DNA from: an uncultured Lachnospiraceae bacterium
Lineage (GTDB): Bacteria; Bacillota; Clostridia; Lachnospirales; Anaerotignaceae
Direction of reading: 5' to 3'
DNA length: 64,000 nucleotides
Assembly (NCBI GenBank): GCA_944381395.1
Contig: CALWKY010000041.1
Location: 79,942-143,941 of the forward strand
Part shown: piece after piece, positions 547 through 57,242 of the stretch
How positions within the stretch are numbered: position 1 is the first letter of the stretch
Layout of the letters: each line of letters begins with the position of its first letter
Notes under the pieces: model-generated
Told to the model about the DNA's origin: nothing
Databases searched by the model: none
What the model saw: only the letters and a program-made list of their open reading frames with translations
Made by a program: the position numbers and the translations under genes

Positions 547-1092
547 TTATTTAACCAATTTAGAAATTGCCTTGAAATGCTCGGATGTGCTGGTTTCTGT
601 CAATTCAAAGAGAATAGACTCTACACTGGAAATGATTGCGCCTTCCTGTGCCATTCTGGCAATACCAGAGCGCTTGTCGTATTCTCTTCTGGAGCCCAAT
701 GCGTCTACGGCTAAAATCACTTCACAGCCCTCTGCCAGTAAATCTCTGACTGTCTGCATCACACAAATGTGGGTTTCTGCGCCGCAGATAATCACTTGTT
801 TTTTACCAGAGCCCAAAACAGCCTGGCGCATTTCGTCCTGCAGCATACAGCTGAAACTTCTTTTTTCTAAAGGCTGATACGCCTCCTGCAGAGCTTCTTG
901 AACAGGCGCTACTGTAAAACCCAAACCTTTGGTATACTGCTCCGTCACCACCATAGGAACACCCAATTCTTTTAATCCCTGAATTAACAAAACCGTCCTA
1001 TCAACGACACTTTCTTTCTGATCAATAACGGGCATCAGCCTCTCCTGCTCATCAATAATCATGGCAATACTATTTTGTGCTGATAATTTCAT
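547..1092 (-). CDS. Isochorismatase-family cysteine hydrolase
   Basis: 181 aa. Family-typical layout including ...VIICGAETHICVMQT... with the catalytic Cys. A GGAGG-type RBS lies upstream and the stop is TAA. Confidence 0.8.
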   Translation of the reverse strand: MKLSAQNSIAMIIDEQERLMPVIDQKESVVDRTVLLIQGLKELGVPMVVTEQYTKGLGFTVAPVQEALQEAYQPLEKRSFSCMLQDEMRQAVLGSGKKQVIICGAETHICVMQTVRDLLAEGCEVILAVDALGSRREYDKRSGIARMAQEGAIISSVESILFELTETSTSEHFKAISKLVK

Positions 1093-8688: not shown

Positions 8689-9359
8689 TTTGGTGTGTAG
8701 AAGATGATGCCGGAATACGGGAAATCGAATTATATACCCTAAAAGCAACCGGATTTGAGGCCAGAGGGTTTGAGGAAAGTACTTCTTTTTGGGAAGCACT
8801 GAAAACAGATCAGCCAGAACTGATTTTGTTAGATGTTATGCTGCCTGGAGAAGATGGTGTTCAAATTTTAAAGAAGTTAAAAGCCTCTCCTGATACCTGC
8901 CGCATCCCTATTATTATGGCAACTGCAAAAGGCATGGAATATGATAAAATCCAGAGTTTGGATTTAGGCGCAGATGATTATTTGGTCAAGCCGTTTGGCA
9001 TGATGGAAATGATCTCTCGCATTAAAGCTGTTTTGCGTCGTTGCCAGCCTGTGGAAAAAGATCCCATTTTAACTTACGATTCTTTACAGATGAATTTAAA
9101 GGAGCACAGTGTTTCCATTGATGGGCAGATTATTAACTTAACTTATAAGGAGTATGAACTGTTAAAGCTATTCCTGCTCCATCCCGGCACAGCTTATACA
9201 CGAGAACAGCTGTTTAATGAAATTTGGGGCATGGACTACTGCGGAGAAACCCGAACTGTAGATATGCACATCCGTACGTTACGGCAAAAAATCGGTTCTT
9301 ATGGTGAAAAAATCCAAACCGTACGTAACGTAGGTTACCGAATGGAGGCGCAGAAATGA
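8685..9359 (+). CDS. phoP: OmpR-family response regulator (PhoP/PhoB-type)
   Basis: 224 aa. Receiver domain (LILLDVMLPGEDG, KPF) plus winged-helix domain (TRTVDMHIRTLRQK...VGYR). ATGA overlap with phoU. Confidence 0.85.
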   Translation: MIWCVEDDAGIREIELYTLKATGFEARGFEESTSFWEALKTDQPELILLDVMLPGEDGVQILKKLKASPDTCRIPIIMATAKGMEYDKIQSLDLGADDYLVKPFGMMEMISRIKAVLRRCQPVEKDPILTYDSLQMNLKEHSVSIDGQIINLTYKEYELLKLFLLHPGTAYTREQLFNEIWGMDYCGETRTVDMHIRTLRQKIGSYGEKIQTVRNVGYRMEAQK

Positions 9360-11017
9360 CAAAAAAAATACTTCGTTCCATGTTTTCTATGGCTTTTGTC
9401 ATACTCGTCGCTTCTTTTCTCATTCTTTTAGGTGCGTTATACAGCTACTTTACCAACTTGCAAGCTGATCGGCTGCGTTCTGAAATGAATCTGGCGGCAT
9501 ATAGTGTGTCTGAAGATGGGATTTCCTATTTAGAAAACCTGCAATCAACAGATTTTCGTCTGACCTGGATTGGAGCAGATGGCTCTGTTCTTTATGACAC
9601 ACATTTTAACGCAGAAGAAATGGAAAACCATAGCCAGAGAGAAGAAATTCAGTCCGCATTTGCGACCGGTGAAGGCGAAAGCAGCCGTTACTCCTCTACC
9701 CTCACAGAAAAAAACCTTTATTACGCAAAACTGCTGGAGGATGGCACTGTACTTCGTATCTCCACCAGCTACGCTGCCGTGCCAATGCTGGTTTTAGGGC
9801 TTTTGCCTCCCTTTGTATTGGTTTTTGGGTTTGCTCTGGTGTTAGCCGCAATTCTTTCCAAACGGTTATCTAATCGCATTGTAGCGCCTTTAAATGATTT
9901 AAATTTTGATGAACCATTAGAAAACAATACTTATGATGAATTGTCTCCTATGCTGGTACATATGGAACAACAACGCAGACAAATTACGCAGCAGTTAAGT
10001 GAATTAAAAAAGCAACAAAACGAATTTGCTGCTGTTACAAAAGATATGAAAGAAGGTTTGGTTCTGCTCAATGAGCAAGAAAGAATCCTGAGCATCAACG
10101 CAGCCGCCATGTCTTTTTTGGAAATTAAAGATGCCCATGCAGGCGAAGATTTCTTAGTGATTGAAAGAAATCGTGAAATTGATCAACTTTTGCAAAAAGC
10201 TTTGCAAAATGGCAGCAGCGAAGGTCAGATCAGTAAGCATGGAAGTATCTTCCAATTAAATGCTTCTCGTATTATGGCTGATGATAAAACCAGCGGTGTT
10301 GTTTTACTGATTTTTGATGTAACCGAAAAAGTCTTTGCGGAAAGAAACCGTAGAGAATTTACTGCAAATGTTTCTCATGAGTTAAAAACGCCCCTTCATG
10401 CCATTATGGGCAGTGCGGAATTACTGGAAAGTGGTTTGGTAAAAACAGAAGATATCCCCCGCTTTGTTGGTCAGATTCGCACAGAAGCAGATCGTCTGCT
10501 GTCTTTGATTGAAGATATCATTCGTCTGTCACAGCTGGATGAAAAGCGGGATTTACCTATGGAAACCCTTCGTTTAGACGAAATCGCAAAGAAAGAATTG
10601 GACGCCCTGTCTACTTCTGCCGCTGCCCATCAAGTAACTCTTTCTCTGGAAGCGAAGGAAATCACACTATACAGCAGCCAGCAACTGCTGCACGAAATTA
10701 TTTCAAACCTTTGCGAAAATGCCATTAAGTATAATCATGCTGGCGGAAAAGTTACGGTTGCTTTGGAAAAAACAGATGCTTTAGCCATGATTACTGTAAC
10801 AGATACTGGAATCGGTATTCCCCTCGAAGATCAGGCAAGAGTATTTGAACGTTTCTATCGGGTAGATAAGAGTCATTCCAAAGAAACGGATGGCACTGGA
10901 TTAGGTCTTTCCATTGTAAAACACGCTGTAGAGTACTTAGGTGGTACCATTCACCTAACCAGTACAGTAGGAAAAGGCAGCCAAATTCGTGTGACCCTTC
11001 CCTTAAATAAAAAATAA
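9356..11017 (+). CDS. phoR: Phosphate-sensing histidine kinase (PhoR-type)
   Basis: 553 aa. Two N-terminal TM segments, a PAS-like region, the H-box FTANVSHELKTPL, and N/G boxes (NAIKYN, DTGIGIP, GTGLGLSIV). Confidence 0.85.
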   Translation: MTKKILRSMFSMAFVILVASFLILLGALYSYFTNLQADRLRSEMNLAAYSVSEDGISYLENLQSTDFRLTWIGADGSVLYDTHFNAEEMENHSQREEIQSAFATGEGESSRYSSTLTEKNLYYAKLLEDGTVLRISTSYAAVPMLVLGLLPPFVLVFGFALVLAAILSKRLSNRIVAPLNDLNFDEPLENNTYDELSPMLVHMEQQRRQITQQLSELKKQQNEFAAVTKDMKEGLVLLNEQERILSINAAAMSFLEIKDAHAGEDFLVIERNREIDQLLQKALQNGSSEGQISKHGSIFQLNASRIMADDKTSGVVLLIFDVTEKVFAERNRREFTANVSHELKTPLHAIMGSAELLESGLVKTEDIPRFVGQIRTEADRLLSLIEDIIRLSQLDEKRDLPMETLRLDEIAKKELDALSTSAAAHQVTLSLEAKEITLYSSQQLLHEIISNLCENAIKYNHAGGKVTVALEKTDALAMITVTDTGIGIPLEDQARVFERFYRVDKSHSKETDGTGLGLSIVKHAVEYLGGTIHLTSTVGKGSQIRVTLPLNKK

Positions 11018-11049
11018 AAAGAACCGCAATAGAGGTTTCTTTATAAAAA

Positions 11050-11215
11050 CAAAGACAGCTGAAATCCTTACTTTGATAAGAATTTCAGCTGTTTCTTTTT
11101 GATCTGTATTGTTTTTTCTGGAGACAACCGTCGCAATTCCTCTTAAGAAATCAAAAGAAAGAAACATCATATTTTCTTAAGGGGAGATTGCATTGCGGTT
11201 CTTTTTTATCATTTA
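11050..11215 (-). repeat. Two-hairpin 3' intergenic element, copy A (downstream of the exonuclease gene)
   Basis: On the minus strand it contains:
- hairpin 1, GCAATCTCCCCTTAAGAAA / TTTCTTAAGAGGAATTGC, with a CU-rich loop
- the box GGAATTGCGACGGTTGTCTCC (11120-11140)
- hairpin 2, ACAGCTGAAAT.. (11055-11092), followed by a T-run
It is homologous to the copies at 33.9, 47.3 and 55.3 kb. Confidence 0.7.
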
Positions 11216-11226
11216 ATTGCGCTGCT

Positions 11227-11994
11227 TTATTCCTTCTTTTCCCGCTTTTTTAGTTTCAAATCATACTTTTGTATCCGTCCTAACTTATAAGCTTCCTTAA
11301 TCCAGCTCTGCTCTTCTTCCGAAAGCGCTCTTCCTGCTTTTTCAGTAAAATGGGTAAACAGCGCTTTGGTATCGATACGGGCACGGATTTTTTTTGCAGT
11401 CATCTGCAAGGGCTGGAATATTTCTGGTACAATCTTTTCCGGATGAACGATACGGAAAATTTCCGCTGTATAGGAAGCATCAGAAAAAGCATCATGAAAT
11501 GCATCAGAAATAGGAATCTGCAATGCAGTAACCGCATTTTTCAGACCAATGGAACGCCCTGCTTCCTGATGTAAATAAACAGATGCATACCCTTGAACAT
11601 CTATCATTTTATCCGTTATACTATCTACACTCAAATCATAATACAGAATGTTTTTAAAAAGGGATTTGATATCATCCTTTCCCCAAGTACATAAAACAGC
11701 GTCCTCACTGCCAATAAAAGCAGTAAACGCTTCAAATACAGCAGGGAAATCCGCTTGTCCTTGCAGCATTTCCGCATGGATTCCTGTAATTTTTTCCACA
11801 AAAGGATGAATACGGGGATAAATCTGTGGTTGGATCAATCGGTTAAATGTATCTACTGTCTGAAATTGTTCGTTCAGCTTTAATGCACCTATCTGAATGA
11901 TTTCAAATGGACATTCTGGTACCGTTACAGTAGATTTTCCAGTCTGAAAGGGAAAGGCTTGATTAAACTCCAAGTCTAATACAATATAATGCAT
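11227..11994 (-). CDS. DEDDh 3'-5' exonuclease domain protein (KapD/DnaQ-like)
   Basis: 255 aa. ExoI motif YIVLDLEFN, ExoII CTWGKDDIKSL, ExoIII HDAFSDASYTAEI. Confidence 0.75.
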   Translation of the reverse strand: MHYIVLDLEFNQAFPFQTGKSTVTVPECPFEIIQIGALKLNEQFQTVDTFNRLIQPQIYPRIHPFVEKITGIHAEMLQGQADFPAVFEAFTAFIGSEDAVLCTWGKDDIKSLFKNILYYDLSVDSITDKMIDVQGYASVYLHQEAGRSIGLKNAVTALQIPISDAFHDAFSDASYTAEIFRIVHPEKIVPEIFQPLQMTAKKIRARIDTKALFTHFTEKAGRALSEEEQSWIKEAYKLGRIQKYDLKLKKREKKE

Positions 11995-14990: not shown

Positions 14991-15076
14991 GGAGACGTAT
15001 CGAAGTGGTCGTAACGAGCCTGACTCGAAATCAGGTTGTCCGCAAGGGCACGTGGGTTCGAATCCCACCGTCTCCG
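14991..15076 (+). tRNA. tRNA-Ser (anticodon CGA)
   Basis: I folded the cloverleaf by hand:
- acceptor GGAGACG/CGTCTCC
- anticodon stem CCTGA/TCAGG with loop CTCGAAA
- long variable arm
- T arm GTGGG-TTCGAAT-CCCAC
- discriminator G
No CCA is encoded. Confidence 0.9.
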
Positions 15077-19003: not shown

Positions 19004-19061
19004 TCCTTTTGCACCACCTTATCGGGAATCGCAGTTTCATTCACCTGTGCTATCTTACCAG

Positions 19062-19101
19062 AAAGAAAACAGTCTGTCAAGTATTTTTCCTTGACAGACC
19101 G
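19062..19101 (-). terminator. Rho-independent terminator after ftsY
   Basis: Minus strand reads GGTCTGTCAAG-gaaaaata-CTTGACAGAC followed by TGTTTTCTTTC. Confidence 0.7.
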
Positions 19102-19124
19102 ATTTTTTTGAAATAATTGGCTTT

Positions 19125-20561
19125 TTACAGTTCAAAGAGTGCCTTTGCAAAGCTTTCCGCATCAAAAGGCTGTAAATCCTCTGCCTTTTCTCCTACACCG
19201 ATGAAACGAACAGGGATTTCCATTTCGCTCTTAATGGCTACCACAATACCGCCTTTGGCTGTACCATCCAGTTTTGTTAGTACAATGCCGGTAATTTCCG
19301 CCACTTCATTGAATAATTTTGCCTGCTGCAGCGCGTTCTGTCCGGTGGTGGCATCCAGCACCAAATAAACCTCTCTGTGTGCCTCCGGCCATTCCCGTTC
19401 TATAACCCTGGCAATTTTTTTCAGTTCTTCCATCAAATTCTTTTTGTTGTGCAGCCTGCCGGCAGTATCGCAAAGCAGGATATCTACACCAGCACTCTTT
19501 GCCGCATGGGCCGCTTCAAAAACAACGGCAGCCGGGTCTGTTTTTTCTTCTTTTTTGATGACCGGCACACCATTTCTTTCACCCCAGACTTCCAGCTGGT
19601 CAATGGCAGCGGCGCGGAAGGTATCTGCGGCGGCAAGCATCACTTTTTTTCCTTGGTTGCGATATACATGGGCTAATTTACCAATGGTAGTGGTTTTGCC
19701 TACACCATTGACACCAATGACCAGAATCACTGTAGGAGAAGGCAACATCTCAGCGGCAGCATCTTTTTTCAAAATCTCCGCGATTTCTTCCGCCAGCATT
19801 CCCTTAATGGCACTGGGATCTGTTACCCGCTCTTTCTTAACCCGGTCTCTTAGGCACTCCACAATATCCATGGATGTTTTCACGCCTAAATCCGCTAAAA
19901 TAAGCGCTTCTTCCAATTCTTCAAACAAATCCTCATCAATCTTGGTAAACCCGCCCAGAACGCTGTCAATGCTGCCAAAGATGCTTTCTCTGGTCTTATT
20001 GAGACCAGCTTTCAGTTTTGCAAAAAATCCCAACGGTTTTTCTGTTTCTTCTATCTGTGTTTCATCTGCTTGGGATTCTTGTACAACTTCTTCGGCTTCT
20101 GTGGCTTCCGAAAATTTCTCGGCTTCTTCCGCTATTTCCAGAACTTCTTCTGTTTCTCCGGATGTATCTGAAGCTTCTTCTGCCTCTCCAGTTATTTCTG
20201 TTGCCTCTTCTTCTATCTCTGCATCCAATAATTTTTCTGGAGATTCCACAGCAGTCTCTGCGCTCTGTGCAGACGCTTCTTCTACTATTTCATCCACACT
20301 GGATTCCGCCTCAATCGGCTCGATTTCCAATTGTACAGAATCTGATTTTTCTGGTTTATCCTCAGACTCCGTTTCTTCCGGTACGGTTTCTGCGATTTGT
20401 TCTACTGATTCAGAAGTTTCTGCTACAGTATTTTGTCCAGACTGGTCCTCTGCCTCCTCAGCAGACTGCTCCTTTTCTTCTTGTACCGCCTGCTCCTGAG
20501 ACTGTTCCGGCTGAACATCTTCCCCCGCAAATGTTTTCTTTATAAAATCCAAAAATCCCAC
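19125..20561 (-). CDS. ftsY: Signal recognition particle receptor FtsY with a long acidic N-terminal domain
   Basis: 478 aa with a GTG start 8 nt after GGAGG. NG domain GVNGVGKTT, DTAGR, TKLDGT. The first 175 or so residues are Glu/Ser/Thr-rich. Confidence 0.95.
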   Translation of the reverse strand: MGFLDFIKKTFAGEDVQPEQSQEQAVQEEKEQSAEEAEDQSGQNTVAETSESVEQIAETVPEETESEDKPEKSDSVQLEIEPIEAESSVDEIVEEASAQSAETAVESPEKLLDAEIEEEATEITGEAEEASDTSGETEEVLEIAEEAEKFSEATEAEEVVQESQADETQIEETEKPLGFFAKLKAGLNKTRESIFGSIDSVLGGFTKIDEDLFEELEEALILADLGVKTSMDIVECLRDRVKKERVTDPSAIKGMLAEEIAEILKKDAAAEMLPSPTVILVIGVNGVGKTTTIGKLAHVYRNQGKKVMLAAADTFRAAAIDQLEVWGERNGVPVIKKEEKTDPAAVVFEAAHAAKSAGVDILLCDTAGRLHNKKNLMEELKKIARVIEREWPEAHREVYLVLDATTGQNALQQAKLFNEVAEITGIVLTKLDGTAKGGIVVAIKSEMEIPVRFIGVGEKAEDLQPFDAESFAKALFEL

Positions 20562-33861: not shown

Positions 33862-34020
33862 ATAAAAAGAACGGAGCAAACAGGTTCCCCTTAAGAAAAT
33901 ATTGGGTTTCTCATTTCCTGATTTCTTAAAAGGAACAGCTATCTTCATAAGAAAACAATTCCGATAAAATAAAATCGCGGGAATTTTTGCAACATAAAAG
34001 ATTCCCGCGATTTTTGTTTT
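33862..34020 (+). repeat. Two-hairpin 3' intergenic element, copy B (downstream of the antiporter gene)
   Basis: Hairpin 1 is GTTCCCCTTAAGAAA (33884-33898) with TTTCTTAAAAGGAAC (33922-33936). A spacer follows containing AAAACAAT. Hairpin 2 is TCGCGGGAAT (33975-33984) with ATTCCCGCGA (34001-34010), then TTTTTGTTTT. Confidence 0.65.
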
Positions 34021-34064
34021 CTTGTGAAGATGCCCCTTAAAGGCTCCATTCTTTTTTATTGCTT

Positions 34065-39822: not shown

Positions 39823-40155
39823 ACAGGAATCCCTCCCTCTTTCTCGGAAAATCAATGGGAAAACCGCTTCATTTCCCTTTTTTCGCAATTATTTAATTTT
39901 AACATAATTTTAATAAAAAGAAAAGCATTCTGACAAAAAACCAACCTTTTCATATGATATGGACTCTCACGGAATTCATCCAAAAATAGAAAGAAAAGCA
40001 TCCTACGGGTTCCTCTTTCAGAAAATATCCCTTTTCCCTTTGATTGTTTAGAAAAACAGCTGCCTTCATAAATACCAAGCTGAATAAAAAAGCTGGAATT
40101 CCAAATAAGGATTCCAGCTATATTTTTTGTTAAAACAGTCTTAGGGCTTTCTTTT

Positions 40156-41835
40156 TTATTTACTTACTTTAAAGGAACTCTTCAAAGGTACAATACGGTT
40201 AAATACCAGATGATCTTCTGTCGTATCCTTGGTATCTACAATATAGTAGCCATTACGCATAAACTGGAACCGATCTCCCTTTTTCGCATGCTGAATGGAA
40301 GGTTCAATGAATGCTGTCTTTACTTCCAAAGAATTAGGGTTCATAATCATTTCACCACTGGGATCATCCGGGTTGTCCAGCATCATATAATCGTACAGTC
40401 TTGCAGTTGCCTCCACTGCCTGTGCTGCGCTGACCCAATGAAGGGTGCCCTTTACTTTTCTGCCTTCAAAACCGCTTCCGCTCTTTGTTTCCGGATCATA
40501 TGTGCAGTGTACTTCCACTACATTGCCATTGGCATCCTTTACTACATCGGTGCAGGTAATGAAGTATGCACCCTTTAAGCGTACTTCTTTGCCAGGCGCC
40601 AGACGGAAGAATTTCTTTACAGGTTCTTCCATGAAGTCTTCTCGTTCGATATAAAGTTCTCTGCTGAAAGGCACTTCTCTGCTGCCCAGTTCAGGATTTT
40701 CCGGATTGTTTTCAATCGTCAGCATTTCCACCTGATCTTCCGCATAGTTGTCAATGATTACCTTCAAAGGATCCAATACTGCCATAACAACCTTCGCTTT
40801 TGCCTTCAGGTCATCACGAATACAGTAGTCCAAAAGAGTGCTGTCTACCATACTGTTTGCTTTAGAGACGCCAATTCTTTCGCAGAAATCACGGATAGAT
40901 TCCGGTGTATAGCCTCTACGGCGCAGACCACAAATAGTAGGCATACGAGGGTCATCCCAACCGTCAACCAAATTATTTTCTACCAACGCACGGAGTTTTC
41001 TCTTACTCATAACGGTATTAGTCATACCCAAACGGGCAAATTCAATCTGCCTGGGAGGATTCTCAGTATAACCGGCTTCTCTTACCACCCAGTCATACAG
41101 CGGTCTATGGTCCTCAAATTCCATGGTACAAATGGAATGGGTAATGCCTTCAATGGCATCCTCCAAAGGATGAGCGAAGTCATACATAGGATAAATGCAC
41201 CAGGCGTCTCCTGTGGTATGATGTGTCGCATGAGCAATACGATAAATAACAGGGTCTCTCATATTGATGTTGGGAGAAGCCATGTCAATTTTCGCACGCA
41301 GCGTACGAGAACCATCCGGAAATTCCCCCGCTTTCATCCGTTCAAACAGATCCAGGTTTTCTTCTACGCTTCTGTTGCGGTAAGGGCTTTCTTTCCCAGG
41401 AGTATTTAAAGTACCTCTGTATTCCCGCATTTCTTCCGCAGTCAAATCACATACAAAGGCTTTTCCTCTCTTAATCAGGTCCACTGCTACTTCATAATAT
41501 TTCTGGAAATAAGAAGAAGCATAGTACAGTCTGTCTTCCCAATCAAAACCAAGCCACTTTACATCTTCCATAATGGATTCTACATATTCCATATCTTCTT
41601 TGGAAGGGTTGGTGTCGTCAAAACGCAGGTTACACTTACCACCATACAAATTAGCCAAACCAAAATTCAGGCAGATACTTTTGGCATGACCAATGTGCAG
41701 ATAGCCATTGGGCTCCGGCGGAAAGCGGGTGTGAATTTTATTCAATTCCCCTTTTAAGTCTTCCTGGATATAGTTATGTATGAAGTTTCCAGTCGCGCCT
41801 AATCCAGTCGCTTCCATGTTTTTTTCTTCTGCCAT
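40156..41835 (-). CDS. glnS: Glutamine--tRNA ligase
   Basis: Start set at MAEEKN. Class I motifs HIGH (LHIGHAKS) and VMSKR (KMSKS-type). GlnRS-type anticodon-binding barrels are present. Confidence 0.95.
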
Positions 41836-47230: not shown

Positions 47231-47383
47231 ATAAAAAGGATGATCAAAAGCAGGCTCCTTTTCAGAAAACATTCTTTTTCTTTTTAATTTCCGAAAGGGA
47301 ATTGCGACGGCTGTCTCCCATAAAAACAATATAAAAAATAGGTGAAATTTTTCTATGAAAGATTTCACCTATTTTTGCTTTTT
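47231..47383 (+). repeat. Two-hairpin 3' intergenic element, copy C (downstream of the GT8 gene)
   Basis: Hairpin 1 is CTCCTTTTCAGAAA (47255-47268) with TTTCCGAAAGGGA (47288-47300). The box is GGAATTGCGACGGCTGTCTCC (47298-47318). Hairpin 2 is AGGTGAAAT (47340-47348) with ATTTCACCT (47362-47370), then TATTTTTGCTTTTT. Confidence 0.7.
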
Positions 47384-47579
47384 AGGAAGAAGCACTTCAT
47401 GGGCAGTCCCTTTTATTGATATTGTAAAATCATAGCATCCGCAATTATTTTTTTGCGCCATGTAAAACAACCTGCTAAACGAAAGTATCAATTTTTGAAA
47501 AGCAATCAGAATCTCATTATAAGCAGGCTTTTTCCATCTCTATCCCGCCCGCCGCGGGAATTCTCCTGAGATTGTCCAC

Positions 47580-55247: not shown

Positions 55248-55284
55248 GTAAAATCATTGAAATTAAGAGCGCATTCATTAGGAA

Positions 55285-55429
55285 AACAAAAACAGCTGAA
55301 ACCCTTACCATAACAAGGATTTCAGCTGTTTTTTTCATCTGCGTTGCCTTTTTAAAGACAGTCATCACAGTTTCCCGTTAGAAATCAAAAGAAAAGAATG
55401 TTTTCTGATAGGAAAGTTGCTTTTTCCAA
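55285..55429 (-). repeat. Two-hairpin 3' intergenic element, copy D (downstream of pyk)
   Basis: On the minus strand: CTTTCCTATCAGAAAACATTCTTTTCTTTTGATTTCTAACGGGAAA forms hairpin 1. A degenerate box, CTGTGATGACTGTCTTT, follows. Hairpin 2 is ACAGCTGAAATCCTT.../...AAGGGTTTCAGCTGT (55292-55329), then TTTTTGTTTT. Confidence 0.65.
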
Positions 55430-57190
55430 TTATTCGTTTTCTGGAATACCGCGGAAAACAGAACCGCTTTGTGGATCTAATGTTAATAAAGTGCGATCCG
55501 GCAGAAAATCTACAACTTTTGTATTGCACAGAATAACCGGTAAATTTAATGCCCGCGCAGCAATTTCTGCATGGCAAGTATCTCCATTGCCTACCGGTCC
55601 TACAATCAAAGCAGAAGCTTTCTGGATATAAGGCATATAATCGTTATCTGTTGCTGTGGTAACTAAAATATCACCTTTGCGGAATTTCGTTTCCAGATCT
55701 TTTCTAGTGCGGATAATACAGCTTTTTCCGCTGATGCGTTTATGCCCAATACCAATTCCCTTACACAGAATATTACCCACAATATCCACACGCATGGTAT
55801 TGGTAGCGCCACTAGTTCCGGCGGGCATGCCCACAACGGTTACAATGGTATCCCCTTCTCGGACTAATCCGCTTTGTTTTGCAACTTCCACTGCTGCATG
55901 GAACATCTCACTGGTAGGGGTTTCTTTTTGATATAAAACGGGTTTACAGTTCCATAAAAGGTTTAACTGCCTCCAAACCTGTTCGTCTCCCGTACCTGCT
56001 ACAATCGGACAGATTGGTCTGTGTTTTGCTACCATTCTTGCGGTAAAGCCGGAACGGGTTACGGTACAAATGCATGTTGTACCCAGTTCAGCAGCTGCCG
56101 TACAAGCCGCATAACTCAGTGCGTTGGTAATACTGGTTTTTACTTTGGAGAATGTTTTGGTCAGCATTTCGGTATAGTCAATACTGCTTTCTGTCTTTTC
56201 TGCAATTCTAGCCATGGTAGCTACGGCTTCTGCCGGATAATCCCCCTTTGCTGTTTCGCCAGAAAGCATGACACAGTCTGTACCATCAAAAATGGCATTG
56301 GCTACGTCATTTGCCTCTGCTCTTGTGGGTCTAGGATTAGAGATCATGCTCTCCAACATCTGCGTTGCAGTAATGACATGTTTATTCAACGCATTGGCCT
56401 TACGAATCAAAGTCTTTTGTACCAGCGGCACCTCTTCCGGCGGGATTTCTACGCCCAAATCACCTCTGGCTACCATAATGCCGTCAGAAACTTCCAAAAT
56501 CTCATCAATATTATTGACACCCTCTCGGTTTTCGATTTTAGAAATAATAAGCATCTTCTCTCCGCCAAATTCTTCCAGCACATGACGCAATTTCGCCACG
56601 TCAGCAGCAGAACGAATGAAGGAAGCCGCCACCAGATCAAATCCATTTTCTACGCCAAATTTCAGATCCGCAACATCTTTTTCTGTCAAAGACGGCAAGT
56701 TAATGTAAACTCCAGGAACATTTACCCCTTTATTCGCACTGACTACGCCACCATTGACAATCTTACAGAAAATCTCTTTCTCCGTAGTGCCTGTTACTTC
56801 CAGTTCAATCAAACCGTCATCAATTAAAATGGTAGTGCCTTTCGTTACATCTTTAGGCAGCTCCGCGTAGGTAATGGAAACTTTCGTTTCATCCCCTTCC
56901 ACTTCTTCTGTTGTCAAGGTAAAGGGTTTTCCGTTCTCCAGTATAACACTTTCTGTGGAAAAATTCTTAATCCGGATTTCCGGTCCTTTTGTATCTAACA
57001 TCAACGGAATGGGTGCATTCATTGCTTCTCTGGCTTCTTTTAAAAGCTCAATAGTCTGTTTATGGGACGCATACGTACCATGGGAAAAATTGATTCTTGC
57101 CACATCCATACCATTGGCAATCAATTTTTTCAGCATATCCACGCTCATGGTAGCAGGTCCTAAGGTACACACAATTTTTGTTCTTCTCAT
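55430..57190 (-). CDS. pyk: Pyruvate kinase with a C-terminal PEP-utilizer (PEPut) domain
   Basis: Start set at MRRTKIVCTLGP. Motifs NFSHG, MVARGDLGVEIP and a C-terminal ...GGATNTM/HAEIAAR... swivel-like domain, as in Bacillus Pyk. Confidence 0.95.
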   Translation of the reverse strand: MRRTKIVCTLGPATMSVDMLKKLIANGMDVARINFSHGTYASHKQTIELLKEAREAMNAPIPLMLDTKGPEIRIKNFSTESVILENGKPFTLTTEEVEGDETKVSITYAELPKDVTKGTTILIDDGLIELEVTGTTEKEIFCKIVNGGVVSANKGVNVPGVYINLPSLTEKDVADLKFGVENGFDLVAASFIRSAADVAKLRHVLEEFGGEKMLIISKIENREGVNNIDEILEVSDGIMVARGDLGVEIPPEEVPLVQKTLIRKANALNKHVITATQMLESMISNPRPTRAEANDVANAIFDGTDCVMLSGETAKGDYPAEAVATMARIAEKTESSIDYTEMLTKTFSKVKTSITNALSYAACTAAAELGTTCICTVTRSGFTARMVAKHRPICPIVAGTGDEQVWRQLNLLWNCKPVLYQKETPTSEMFHAAVEVAKQSGLVREGDTIVTVVGMPAGTSGATNTMRVDIVGNILCKGIGIGHKRISGKSCIIRTRKDLETKFRKGDILVTTATDNDYMPYIQKASALIVGPVGNGDTCHAEIAARALNLPVILCNTKVVDFLPDRTLLTLDPQSGSVFRGIPENE

Positions 57191-57242
57191 ATTGTATTTC
57201 TTCACCTTCTTTTATAACTTCCTGCTAATATATGATCTTATC

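What the first reader, a model, noticed from the sequence alone, without database searches (positions are those of the whole stretch)
11018..11226. Family of about 150-nt two-hairpin elements placed directly 3' of genes: copy A and family definition
Four intergenic regions in this window carry a recognisably homologous module, always starting within a few nt of a stop codon and on the same strand as that gene.

**The four copies, read 5'->3' in element orientation**
- A (minus strand, after the exonuclease gene): AAAAAAGAACCGCAATGCAATCTCCCCTTAAGAAA-ATATGATGTTTCTTTCTTTTGA-TTTCTTAAGAGGAATTGCGACGGTTGTCTCC-AGAAAAAACAATACAG...ACAGCTGAAATTCTTA-TCAAAG-TAAGGATTTCAGCTGT-CTTTGTTTTT
- C (plus strand, 47231-47383): ...GCAGGCTCCTTTTCAGAAA-ACATTCTTTTTCTTTTTAA-TTTCCGAAAGGGAATTGCGACGGCTGTCTCC-CATAAAAACAATAT...AGGTGAAAT-..-ATTTCACCT-ATTTTTGCTTTTT
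- B (plus strand, 33862-34020) and D (minus strand, 55285-55429) have the same layout with a more diverged box.

**Shared parts**
- an A-rich start
- hairpin 1, whose stem is built on CCTTAAGAAA/TTTCTTAAGG and whose loop is pyrimidine-rich (TTTCTTTCTTTT-like)
- a 21-nt box that is 20/21 identical between A and C
- AAAACAAT
- hairpin 2 followed by TTTTTGYTTTT

Copy A is additionally bracketed by the inverted repeat AAAAAGAACCGCAAT (11016-11030) and ATTGCGGTTCTTTTT (11191-11205).

**Inference**
This is more than a terminator. It could be a 3'UTR-borne small RNA or regulatory module, since the CU-rich loop could pair with purine-rich ribosome-binding sites. It could also be a processing or stability element, or a MITE-like mobile repeat. 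I do not recognise it as a named repeat or RNA family.
Basis: seen in the sequence. Interest (0 to 1): 0.62.

Follow-up and report, generated by a model that had tools for sequence, protein, structure and literature searches.

The report
Mobile repeat lodged in terminator loops
The four "two-hairpin modules" are old copies of a small gene-less mobile DNA element, abundant in gut Anaerotignum-like Clostridia, that inserts into the tip of transcription-terminator hairpins and carries a terminator of its own; they are not a dedicated regulatory RNA.

Summary
Copies A-D are homologous, and a covariance model finds a fifth, decayed copy at 39994-40146.

Searches outside the window show what they are. 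The same ~180-nt element gave 189 hits in 968 kb of loci fetched with a hairpin-1 pattern, nearly all from Anaerotignum and related gut Clostridia. It gave none in 482 kb of other Clostridia loci, none in phage or plasmid collections, and matches no Rfam family.

Almost every copy sits between an A-run+stem and its complementary stem+T-run. The "bracketing inverted repeat" of copy A is therefore a host terminator hairpin split at its loop. Related genomes carry the same terminators without the element, with a single AA where filled sites read AA-AGCAAC…CCCCT-AA.

Both hairpins, plus an unnoticed long stem enclosing hairpin 2, show compensatory changes. Orientation relative to genes is not fixed (33 sense, 17 antisense). 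Hairpin 1 is eroded in the window copies while the terminator hairpin is intact, and the hairpin-1 loop is T-rich but not conserved.

Verdict: a MITE-like, terminator-loop-targeting repeat with no described name and an unknown mobilising enzyme. The 3'UTR small-RNA reading is not supported.

The parts
11031..11192 (-). Copy A, element core (left end tGCAATC…, right end …CCTCT). Hairpin 1 is 11191-11133, the box 11140-11120, and the inner terminator hairpin plus T-run 11095-11041.
   Evidence: Sequence; nhmmer E=4e-33; covariance model 133 bits (seed member); fold.
11192..11207 (-). Left half of the host terminator split by copy A (AAAAAAGAACCGCAAT), 3' of the 11227..11994 (-) ORF.
   Evidence: Pairs with 11016-11030 at -21.0 kcal/mol. 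The same anatomy is seen in 71% of 114 family copies.
11016..11030 (-). Right half of the host terminator split by copy A (ATTGCGGTTCTTTTT). It overlaps the stop codon of the convergent 9356..11017 (+) ORF.
33878..34042 (+). Copy B core, between host terminator halves 33863-33877 (AAAAAGAACGGAGC) and 34043-34057 (GCTCCATTCTTTTTT).
   Evidence: 143.9 bits; -14.9 kcal/mol; terminator-like site 33971-34014.
39994..40146 (+). Copy E, a decayed fifth copy between AAAAATAGAAAG (39982-39993) and CTTTCTTTTTT (40147-40157). It is antisense to both flanking minus-strand ORFs.
   Evidence: Covariance model 31 bits, E=1.4e-4, not in the seed; nhmmer E=8e-5; sequence; terminator-like site 40091-40119.
47247..47400 (+). 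Copy C core, between co-directional ORFs. The outer stem is only moderate (-10.0 kcal/mol).
   Evidence: (109.9 bits); terminator-like site 47334-47376.
55263..55423 (-). Copy D core, starting about 7 nt after the TAA stop (55432-55430) of the 55430..57205 (-) ORF. The outer stem is weak and AT-rich.
   Evidence: 109.2 bits; -3.3 kcal/mol.

Best explanation
These are copies of a gene-less, roughly 180-bp mobile DNA element (MITE-like).

**Anatomy of the consensus**
- 5'-AGCAAC, then hairpin 1 (about 20 bp, TTCCCCTTAAGAAA…TTTCTTAAGGGGAA, with a T-rich loop).
- The box TTGCGACGGCTG.
- A long stem P2a (TCTTCATAAGAAAACA / TGTTTTCTTATGAAGA) enclosing an 18-bp terminator hairpin P2b followed by a T-run.
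- The right end …GCCCCT-3'.
- The two hairpins share the 5'-arm motif TAAGAAAACA, so the two ends also read as imperfect inverted repeats.

**What is shown**
- The element integrates at an AA dinucleotide in the apical loop of a pre-existing Rho-independent terminator hairpin.
- AA then lies on both sides of the insert, always in the same orientation relative to the element.

**What is inferred**
- Movement is catalysed in trans by an enzyme that I did not find. It acts asymmetrically on hairpin or single-stranded DNA. Candidates are an HUH-type transposase (IS200/IS605 or IS91 kind) or a site-specific recombinase with an AA crossover.
- Because the insert carries its own terminator-like hairpin, termination of the neighbouring gene is preserved. 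Terminator loops are therefore safe landing sites.
- In this window the five copies are old. The transposition-related parts (hairpin 1, P2a, the ends) have eroded, while the terminator hairpin stays strong, probably because it now serves as the gene's terminator.
For: **1. Family and distribution**
- The box pattern found four near-identical copies at contig ends of one Clostridia MAG.
- nhmmer found 189 copies, 129 of them full length, in 968 kb.
- It found 0 in 482 kb of other Clostridia loci.

**2. Split terminators**
- Flank duplex energy averages -14.2 kcal/mol, against -5.8 for mismatched flank pairs.
- 71% of copies beat the control's 5th percentile. An A-run lies upstream in 82% and a T-run downstream in 86%.
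- After removing the element, 61 of 80 sites fold with the AA in an apical loop, mostly 3-5 nt long.

**3. Empty sites in 92-95% identical relatives**
- L037 …TTTTCC-A[AAAGCAAC…CCCCTAA]GGAAAA… versus L092 …TTTTCC-AAA-GGAAAA….
- L120 versus L058: CCTCC-TAA-GAG.
- L072 versus L016: ATC-CAA-GAG.
- L086 versus L102: GAC-AA-GG.
- L041 versus L086: CTGG-AA-AATG.
- L037 and L092 are reciprocally filled at two adjacent terminators of one intergenic region.
- One run's contig lacks L110:369-546.

**4. Ends.** AAA|GCAAC is present in 87-95 of 96 copies, and GCCCC-N-AA in 85-95 of 96.

**5. Structure.** On 50 sequences, 89.6% of cells are paired and 31 of 55 pairs changed on both sides. No shuffle of 500 reached the observed values, and slid controls pair at only 45-56%.

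**6. Context.** Gene arrangements are >E< 41, >E> 33, <E< 17. A flanking gene end lies about 26 nt from the element.

**7. Window copies.** Hairpin 1 folds at -8 to -16 kcal/mol, against -23.7 for a consensus-like copy, while the P2b hairpins remain 14-18 bp. They are the top terminator-like sites in the scanned region.
Against: - No autonomous partner with the same ends was found in 968 kb of loci, in plasmids, in phages or in viral contigs.
- The mobilising enzyme and its chemistry are inferred only.
- A local GC-skew proxy shows only a weak strand bias (61 of 105 copies, p=0.12). This does not favour a strict lagging-strand single-stranded-DNA mechanism.
- Compensatory changes in near-palindromes can also arise by template-switch correction without selection.
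- No strain-level polymorphism of the window's own copies was seen in metagenome contigs, but coverage was low and noisy.
- Transcript ends could not be mapped. One 253-nt metatranscriptome contig spans all of copy A.
Confidence: 0.85

Rival explanations
1. It is a 3'UTR-borne small RNA or regulatory module. The hairpin-1 loop would pair with ribosome-binding sites, or the module would act as a processing or stability element selected for that role.
For: - The element sits directly 3' of ORFs and ends in a terminator, so sense copies are probably co-transcribed.
- The structures are conserved with covariation.
- One metatranscriptome contig covers copy A.
Against: - 17 of 50 co-directional copies, and copy E in the window, are antisense to the genes.
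- The loop is T-rich but varies in sequence and length between copies.
- Hairpin 1 is the most eroded part in the old window copies.
- Presence/absence at terminator loops between close relatives is the behaviour of mobile DNA.
- Some copies lack hairpin 1 or lack the inner hairpin.
Confidence: 0.07
2. It is a domesticated REP/REPIN-like system. The repeats would be kept by the host as terminators or mRNA 3' stabilisers and spread by a single-copy domesticated HUH transposase (RAYT-like), rather than by a selfish insertion sequence.
For: - Copy density is high: about 2 per 10 kb in the fetched loci and 5 in this 64-kb window.
- No parent insertion sequence was found.
- The element has two similar hairpins, an asymmetric target and no classical duplication.
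- The terminator hairpin is retained in old copies.
- REPs resemble IS200/IS605 subterminal hairpins and pair with Y1 transposases (PMC3333891, PMC3116915).
Against: - No RAYT-like gene flanked by copies was seen. The ORFs between close copy pairs look like ordinary genes by their translations (not scanned against family libraries).
- At about 180 nt with a composite structure, the element is far larger than a REP.
- The conserved GTAG-type 5' motif of REPs is absent.
- The strand bias is weak.
Confidence: 0.2
3. It spreads through RNA, as an intron-like or retro-element. The RNA would reverse-splice or be reverse-transcribed into terminator loops.
For: - The element folds into a compact multi-helix shape closed by the host stem.
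- A contig from a library labelled transcriptomic lacks the element.
Against: - That contig differs from the reference by about 5%, so it comes from another strain.
- The library may contain DNA.
- No ribozyme or intron family matches.
- The antisense copies would need antisense transcripts.
Confidence: 0.03

Closest known systems
[quoted passage not shown] 2011, PMC3049150)
   Same: - A small, AT-rich, gene-less interspersed repeat in a Firmicute.
- It carries a long terminator-like hairpin plus a U-rich tract.
- It lies close to gene 3' ends and is strongly enriched between convergent genes.
- No cognate transposase is known.
   Different: - SPRITE has one 18-bp duplex and only AAAA/TTTT "inverted repeats".
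- No empty site or target was ever established for it.
- Here there are two to three helices, precise empty sites, loop-of-terminator targeting and AA junctions.
- Sequence similarity to SPRITE was not tested.
IS1272 / TnSha1 (IS1182 family, staphylococci; Furi et al. 2016, PMC4923244)
   Same: It inserts into hairpins that are transcription terminators, with no primary-sequence consensus in the target and in both orientations.
   Different: - IS1272 encodes its transposase.
- It cuts in the stem and deletes part of the target, without duplication.
- The present element is gene-less, lands in the apical loop, leaves both stem halves intact and has AA on both sides.
IS1397 / ISKpn1 (IS3 family) and IS110-family elements that target REP palindromes (PMC1525189)
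   Same: Mobile elements whose target is an extragenic palindrome or hairpin rather than a plain sequence.
   Different: - Those targets are one repeated REP sequence.
- Here the targets are unrelated terminator hairpins that share only shape, A/T tracts and an AA in the loop.
REP / REPIN with RAYT, and IS200/IS605 ends (PMC3333891, PMC3116915)
   Same: - Hairpin-based repeats in extragenic space at gene ends.
- Asymmetric, non-duplicating insertion logic.
- Two similar hairpins on one strand.
   Different: - No RAYT or TnpA partner was found.
- The unit is much larger.
- There is no GTAG-type motif.
- The replication-strand bias is weak.
Classical bacterial MITEs (Correia, RUP, ERIC, bcr1; review PMC10969869)
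   Same: Under 300 bp, non-coding, AT-rich, intergenic, folds into a stable stem-loop, and shows presence/absence polymorphism.
   Different: - Classical MITEs have clear terminal inverted repeats matching a known insertion sequence, and a symmetric target duplication such as TA.
- Here the AA flanks are orientation-specific and no parent insertion sequence is known.

Membership tests
MITE (non-autonomous DDE-transposon derivative) | Small (<300 bp), non-coding, multi-copy | tested here: met
   About 180 nt. 189 hits in 968 kb. No ORF is conserved within the element.
MITE (non-autonomous DDE-transposon derivative) | Presence/absence polymorphism at orthologous sites | tested here: met
   Five clean empty sites and one reciprocal pair. 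One element-less contig.
MITE (non-autonomous DDE-transposon derivative) | Terminal inverted repeats | tested here: inconclusive
   The left end AGCAACTTCCCCTTAAGAAAACA matches the reverse complement of the right end, AGGGGCATCTTCATAAGAAAACA, at 16 of 24 positions (my reading of the sequences). The match comes from two similar palindromes.
MITE (non-autonomous DDE-transposon derivative) | Symmetric target-site duplication | tested here: not met
   AA lies on both sides, but always AA rather than TT in the element's orientation, in about 90-99% of 96 copies. A symmetric staggered cut would give both.
MITE (non-autonomous DDE-transposon derivative) | Parent insertion sequence with the same ends | tested here: not met
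   None in the 968 kb of loci, plasmids, phages or viral contigs. Whole genomes could not be scanned.
IS200/IS605-derived element (PATE-like) | Subterminal hairpins at both ends on one strand; no inverted repeats or duplication; insertion 3' of a short fixed motif | tested here: inconclusive
   The two hairpins share TAAGAAAACA. The junctions fit insertion 3' of AA with a right end CNAA. The motif is only 2 nt long.
IS200/IS605-derived element (PATE-like) | Strong orientation bias relative to replication | tested here: inconclusive
   By local GC skew, 61 of 105 copies lie on the G-rich strand, p=0.12. This is a noisy proxy based on 8-kb blocks.
REP/REPIN-RAYT | 20-40-nt imperfect palindrome with a conserved 5' tetranucleotide; RAYT gene flanked by repeats | tested here: not met
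   The unit is about 180 nt and composite. The ORFs between close copy pairs look like ordinary genes by their translations. A genome-wide RAYT search was not possible.
IS1272/TnSha1-type hairpin targeting (IS1182 family) | Insertion into terminator hairpins | tested here: met
IS1272/TnSha1-type hairpin targeting (IS1182 family) | Blunt cut in the stem with partial deletion of the target; element encodes a transposase | tested here: not met
   Both stem halves are intact and the empty loops are recovered exactly. The element has no gene.
3'UTR-derived small RNA | Fixed sense orientation behind a gene and a conserved single-stranded seed | tested here: not met
   17 of 50 co-directional copies are antisense. 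The loop is variable.
3'UTR-derived small RNA | A discrete stable transcript | not testable with these tools
   Only low-depth, strandless contigs of metatranscriptomes were available.
Any Rfam family | Score at or above the gathering threshold | tested here: not met
   The only hit in the window is a tRNA. The best sub-threshold hits are generic hairpins.

The most novel reading that the evidence does not exclude
The family reveals a structure-directed integration mode with no described enzyme. A trans-acting HUH-type transposase or recombinase would recognise the shape of an intrinsic-terminator hairpin, as cruciform or single-stranded DNA. It would insert orientation-specifically at an AA in the apical loop, without damaging the stem. 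This would make the family a Firmicute counterpart of the REP/RAYT system that also supplies replacement terminators.
Probability: 0.3. Interest if true: 0.7.

Novelty: new variant of a known kind. Interest (0 to 1): 0.5.

Why it matters
- **Annotation.** Roughly one intergenic region in every 10-15 kb of these gut Clostridia may carry a copy. That density is extrapolated from 5 copies in 64 kb here and about 70 extra hits beyond the pattern-selected ones in the fetched loci. The copies can be mistaken for structured regulatory RNAs, and near-identical copies sit at contig ends in one MAG.
- **Mechanism.** Precise landing in terminator loops, with an orientation-specific AA on both sides and no known partner, is unusual. 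Known hairpin-targeting elements either cut the stem (IS1272) or target one repeated REP sequence (IS1397).
- **Evolution.** The element carries its own terminator, which shows how a selfish element can be nearly harmless and later be taken over as the gene's working terminator.

Tried and rejected
- **Whole-genome tools.** I made no scan of the window's own genome and no family-versus-transposase correlation.
- **Rfam.** Gathering and E-value modes on the window, on copy A and on a consensus-like copy returned nothing real.
- **Other collections.** The plasmid, phage and viral-contig collections gave no match.
- **Parent element.** I looked for partial hits, for end motifs 0.4-4 kb apart and for multi-copy ORFs. 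None turned up. The interrupted copies contain unrelated insertion sequences.
- **RAYT-like gene between close copy pairs.** Only ordinary-looking genes lie there.
- **Orthologous phoR loci, to find an empty site for copy A.** The nearest relatives are only 56% identical, so they are uninformative. They did serve as a negative control.
- **Exact-protein look-ups for strain variants.** The proteins are not on record.
- **RNA evidence.** Metatranscriptome contigs are too sparse and carry no strand.
- **Strain polymorphism of copies B, C and E in metagenomes.** Only noisy cross-mapping joints appeared.
- **Copy B as an orthologue of an L075 copy.** Rejected, because the flanking genes are unrelated.
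- **Candidate sixth copy at 19035-19190.** It is a plain terminator.
- **First ORF-based context counts.** They were confounded by shadow ORFs and were replaced by codon-scored gene calls.

Full report
**Observation**

The alignment has 73% mean column identity. The 21-nt box GGAATTGCGACGGYTGTCTCC occurs exactly twice in the window, against none in 100 shuffles. RNAalifold recovers hairpin 1 and hairpin 2 with compensatory pairs. The inverted repeat bracketing copy A is real.

No Rfam family reaches its threshold in the window except one tRNA. The sub-threshold hits on copy A and on a consensus-like copy are generic hairpins.

**The family outside the window**

- The box pattern found four near-identical copies in one Clostridia MAG (SUG1085). 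Two lie at contig ends, as expected of a repeat that breaks assemblies. There was also one chance hit.
Nearly all are from Anaerotignum lactatifermentans DSM 14214, Clostridia bacterium UC5.1-1D10 and related gut MAGs.
- Diverged subfamilies occur in MAGs labelled [Eubacterium] saphenum and Lachnospiraceae.
- An HMM built from these copies finds 189 non-overlapping hits, 129 of them full length, in 968 kb.
- It finds none in 482 kb of phoR loci from 80 other Clostridia.
- Plasmid, phage and viral-contig collections hold nothing similar.
- Copies in Anaerotignum genomes are about 89-91% identical to the consensus. Copy A, the only window copy that passed the end-motif filter, is 71% identical, and the four window copies score lowest among the 55 representative full-length copies.
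- The window's organism lives in the chicken gut. It has no close relative in the genome collection: the best PhoR match is 56% identical.

**Anatomy**

The consensus is about 181 nt:
- AAAGCAAC, the left end.
- Hairpin 1: TTCCCCTTAAGAAAACA…TGATTTCTTAAGGGGAA, extended by GCAA/TTGC.
- The box, TTGCGACGGCTG.
- Stem P2a: TCTTCATAAGAAAACA…TGTTTTCTTATGAAGA.
- Inside P2a, an 18-bp hairpin P2b followed by a T-run.
- TGCCCCTAA, the right end.

Both hairpins share the 5'-arm motif TAAGAAAACA, so the two ends also read as imperfect inverted repeats (16 of 24).

On 50 diverse copies:
- 89.6% of cells pair and 31 of 55 pairs show changes on both sides.
- None of 500 shuffles reaches the observed values.
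- Slid controls pair at only 45-56%.

The subfamilies carry wholesale compensatory swaps in the lower stems of hairpin 1 and P2a.

Several variants exist:
- A short form in which the left end is fused to P2 through the repeated TAAGAAAACA.
- Forms without P2b.
- A solo hairpin 1.

**Where it sits**

Nearly every copy lies between a copy-specific A-run+stem and the complementary stem+T-run.
- Flank pairing averages -14.2 kcal/mol, against -5.8 when flanks are paired across copies. 71% of copies exceed the control's 5th percentile.
- After removing the element and keeping one AA, 61 of 80 sites fold into a hairpin with the AA in an apical loop of mostly 3-5 nt.
- With codon-scored gene calls, the contexts are convergent 41, co-directional sense 33, co-directional antisense 17 and divergent 7 (probably residual miscalls). 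A flanking gene end lies about 26 nt from the element.

So the inverted repeats around copies A and B are the two halves of host terminators. The "same strand as the gene" rule is trivial between convergent genes and does not hold elsewhere.

**Mobility**

Joining the flanks of each copy and searching the other loci recovered element-less orthologous sites in genomes 92-95% identical.

| Filled locus | Empty locus | Sequence at the empty site |
|---|---|---|
| L037 | L092 | TTTTCC-AAA-GGAAAA |
| L120 | L058 | CCTCC-TAA-GAG |
| L072 | L016 | ATC-CAA-GAG |
| L086 | L102 | GAC-AA-GG |
| L041 | L086 | CTGG-AA-AATG |

- In each case the filled allele reads …AA-AGCAAC…CCCCT-AA….
- L037 and L092 are reciprocally filled at two adjacent terminators of the same intergenic region, so these are independent gains.
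- A run's contig also lacks L110:369-546. It retains AAAGCAA at the joint, so this may be a microhomology deletion rather than a virgin site.
- Across 96 copies the junctions are AAA|GCAAC (87-95 of 96) and GCCCC-N-AA (85-95 of 96), always in this orientation.

A symmetric staggered cut would give TT…TT half the time. The integration chemistry is therefore asymmetric. It fits either insertion next to AA by an HUH-type enzyme or recombination at an AA crossover. This step is inference.

A GC-skew proxy shows only a weak strand bias. I found no parent element or partner gene.

**The window copies**

A covariance model (R1) run without filters finds A-D and a fifth copy E at 40010-40153 (31 bits, E=1.4e-4). 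E is bracketed by AAAAATAGAAAG/CTTTCTTTTTT and is antisense to both neighbouring ORFs.

Outer-stem energies are A -21.0, B -14.9, C -10.0, D -3.3 and E -5.6 kcal/mol.

Hairpin 1 has decayed to -8 to -16 kcal/mol, against -23.7 in a consensus-like copy. The inner terminator hairpins remain 14-18 bp and are the top terminator-like sites in the scanned region.

This pattern suggests old insertions in which only the terminator function is still maintained. It argues against hairpin 1 being a functional seed-bearing RNA element. Its loop is T-rich but not conserved.

**Comparison with what is known**

- SPRITE of S. pneumoniae is the closest described repeat: terminator-like, at gene ends, enriched between convergent genes, with no known transposase. 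No target or empty site was ever defined for it.
- IS1272/TnSha1 inserts into terminator hairpins, but it cuts the stem and deletes part of the target.
- IS1397, ISKpn1 and IS110-family elements target REP palindromes.
- I found no paper describing this family.
- Earlier agents of this scan, working on other genomes, reached the same reading of what appears to be the same family. Those are unchecked notes, and I re-derived each point here.

**Verdict**

This is a MITE-like repeat family that lands in terminator loops and brings its own terminator. It is a new variant of a known kind. The open and interesting question is which enzyme moves it and how it recognises a hairpin tip.

Noticed in passing
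L031:1-310 (-) and L052:1-515 (-) (A. lactatifermentans DSM 14214): An IS3-family insertion sequence is inserted in or next to the apical loop of the element's own inner terminator hairpin in two different copies. Its ends read TGAACTG(C/A)ACCC…, and its OrfA begins MPKGVPNKRYTPEFKQLVVETMREEGLS…. This is a second hairpin-loop-seeking element in the same genome.
   Followed up: partly
L055:5895-6053 (+): Another copy is interrupted just after its T-run by an insert with several hairpins. An ORF there starts MANSLA…, which from memory resembles the start of IS200-type TnpA. The contig ends there.
   Followed up: no
L089:~850-905 (-): A copy of the [Eubacterium] saphenum subfamily carries an extra ~50-nt insert of two small GC-rich hairpins (GGGCGATAAATCGCCC and GGAGGCAAAGCCTCC) inside the box region. 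This may be a nested miniature element.
   Followed up: no
window 34044-34062 and L075 (-) near 742-810: Copy B and a SUG1085 copy share a 19-nt identical right flank (CTCCATTCTTTTTTATTGC) and a similar left flank. Their neighbouring genes are unrelated. The element may sometimes carry a host terminator half along, or this may be coincidence.
   Followed up: partly
L005:2115-2211, L063:3197-3272, L067:7625-7709, L020:4976-5064, L058:493-575: Structural variants of the family. Short forms lack hairpin 1's loop and 3' arm and the box, apparently through recombination between the two TAAGAAAACA motifs. Other forms lack the inner terminator hairpin.
   Followed up: partly
window 14991-15076 (+): A tRNA gene with a long variable arm. 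It is the only Rfam gathering-level hit in the window.
   Followed up: no
L110:369-546: A 3.6-kb contig from a canine-metagenome run labelled transcriptomic lacks this copy but keeps AAAGCAA at the joint. The summed contig depth over the element there is more than 100 times that of the flanks, which reflects many copies in that sample.
   Followed up: partly
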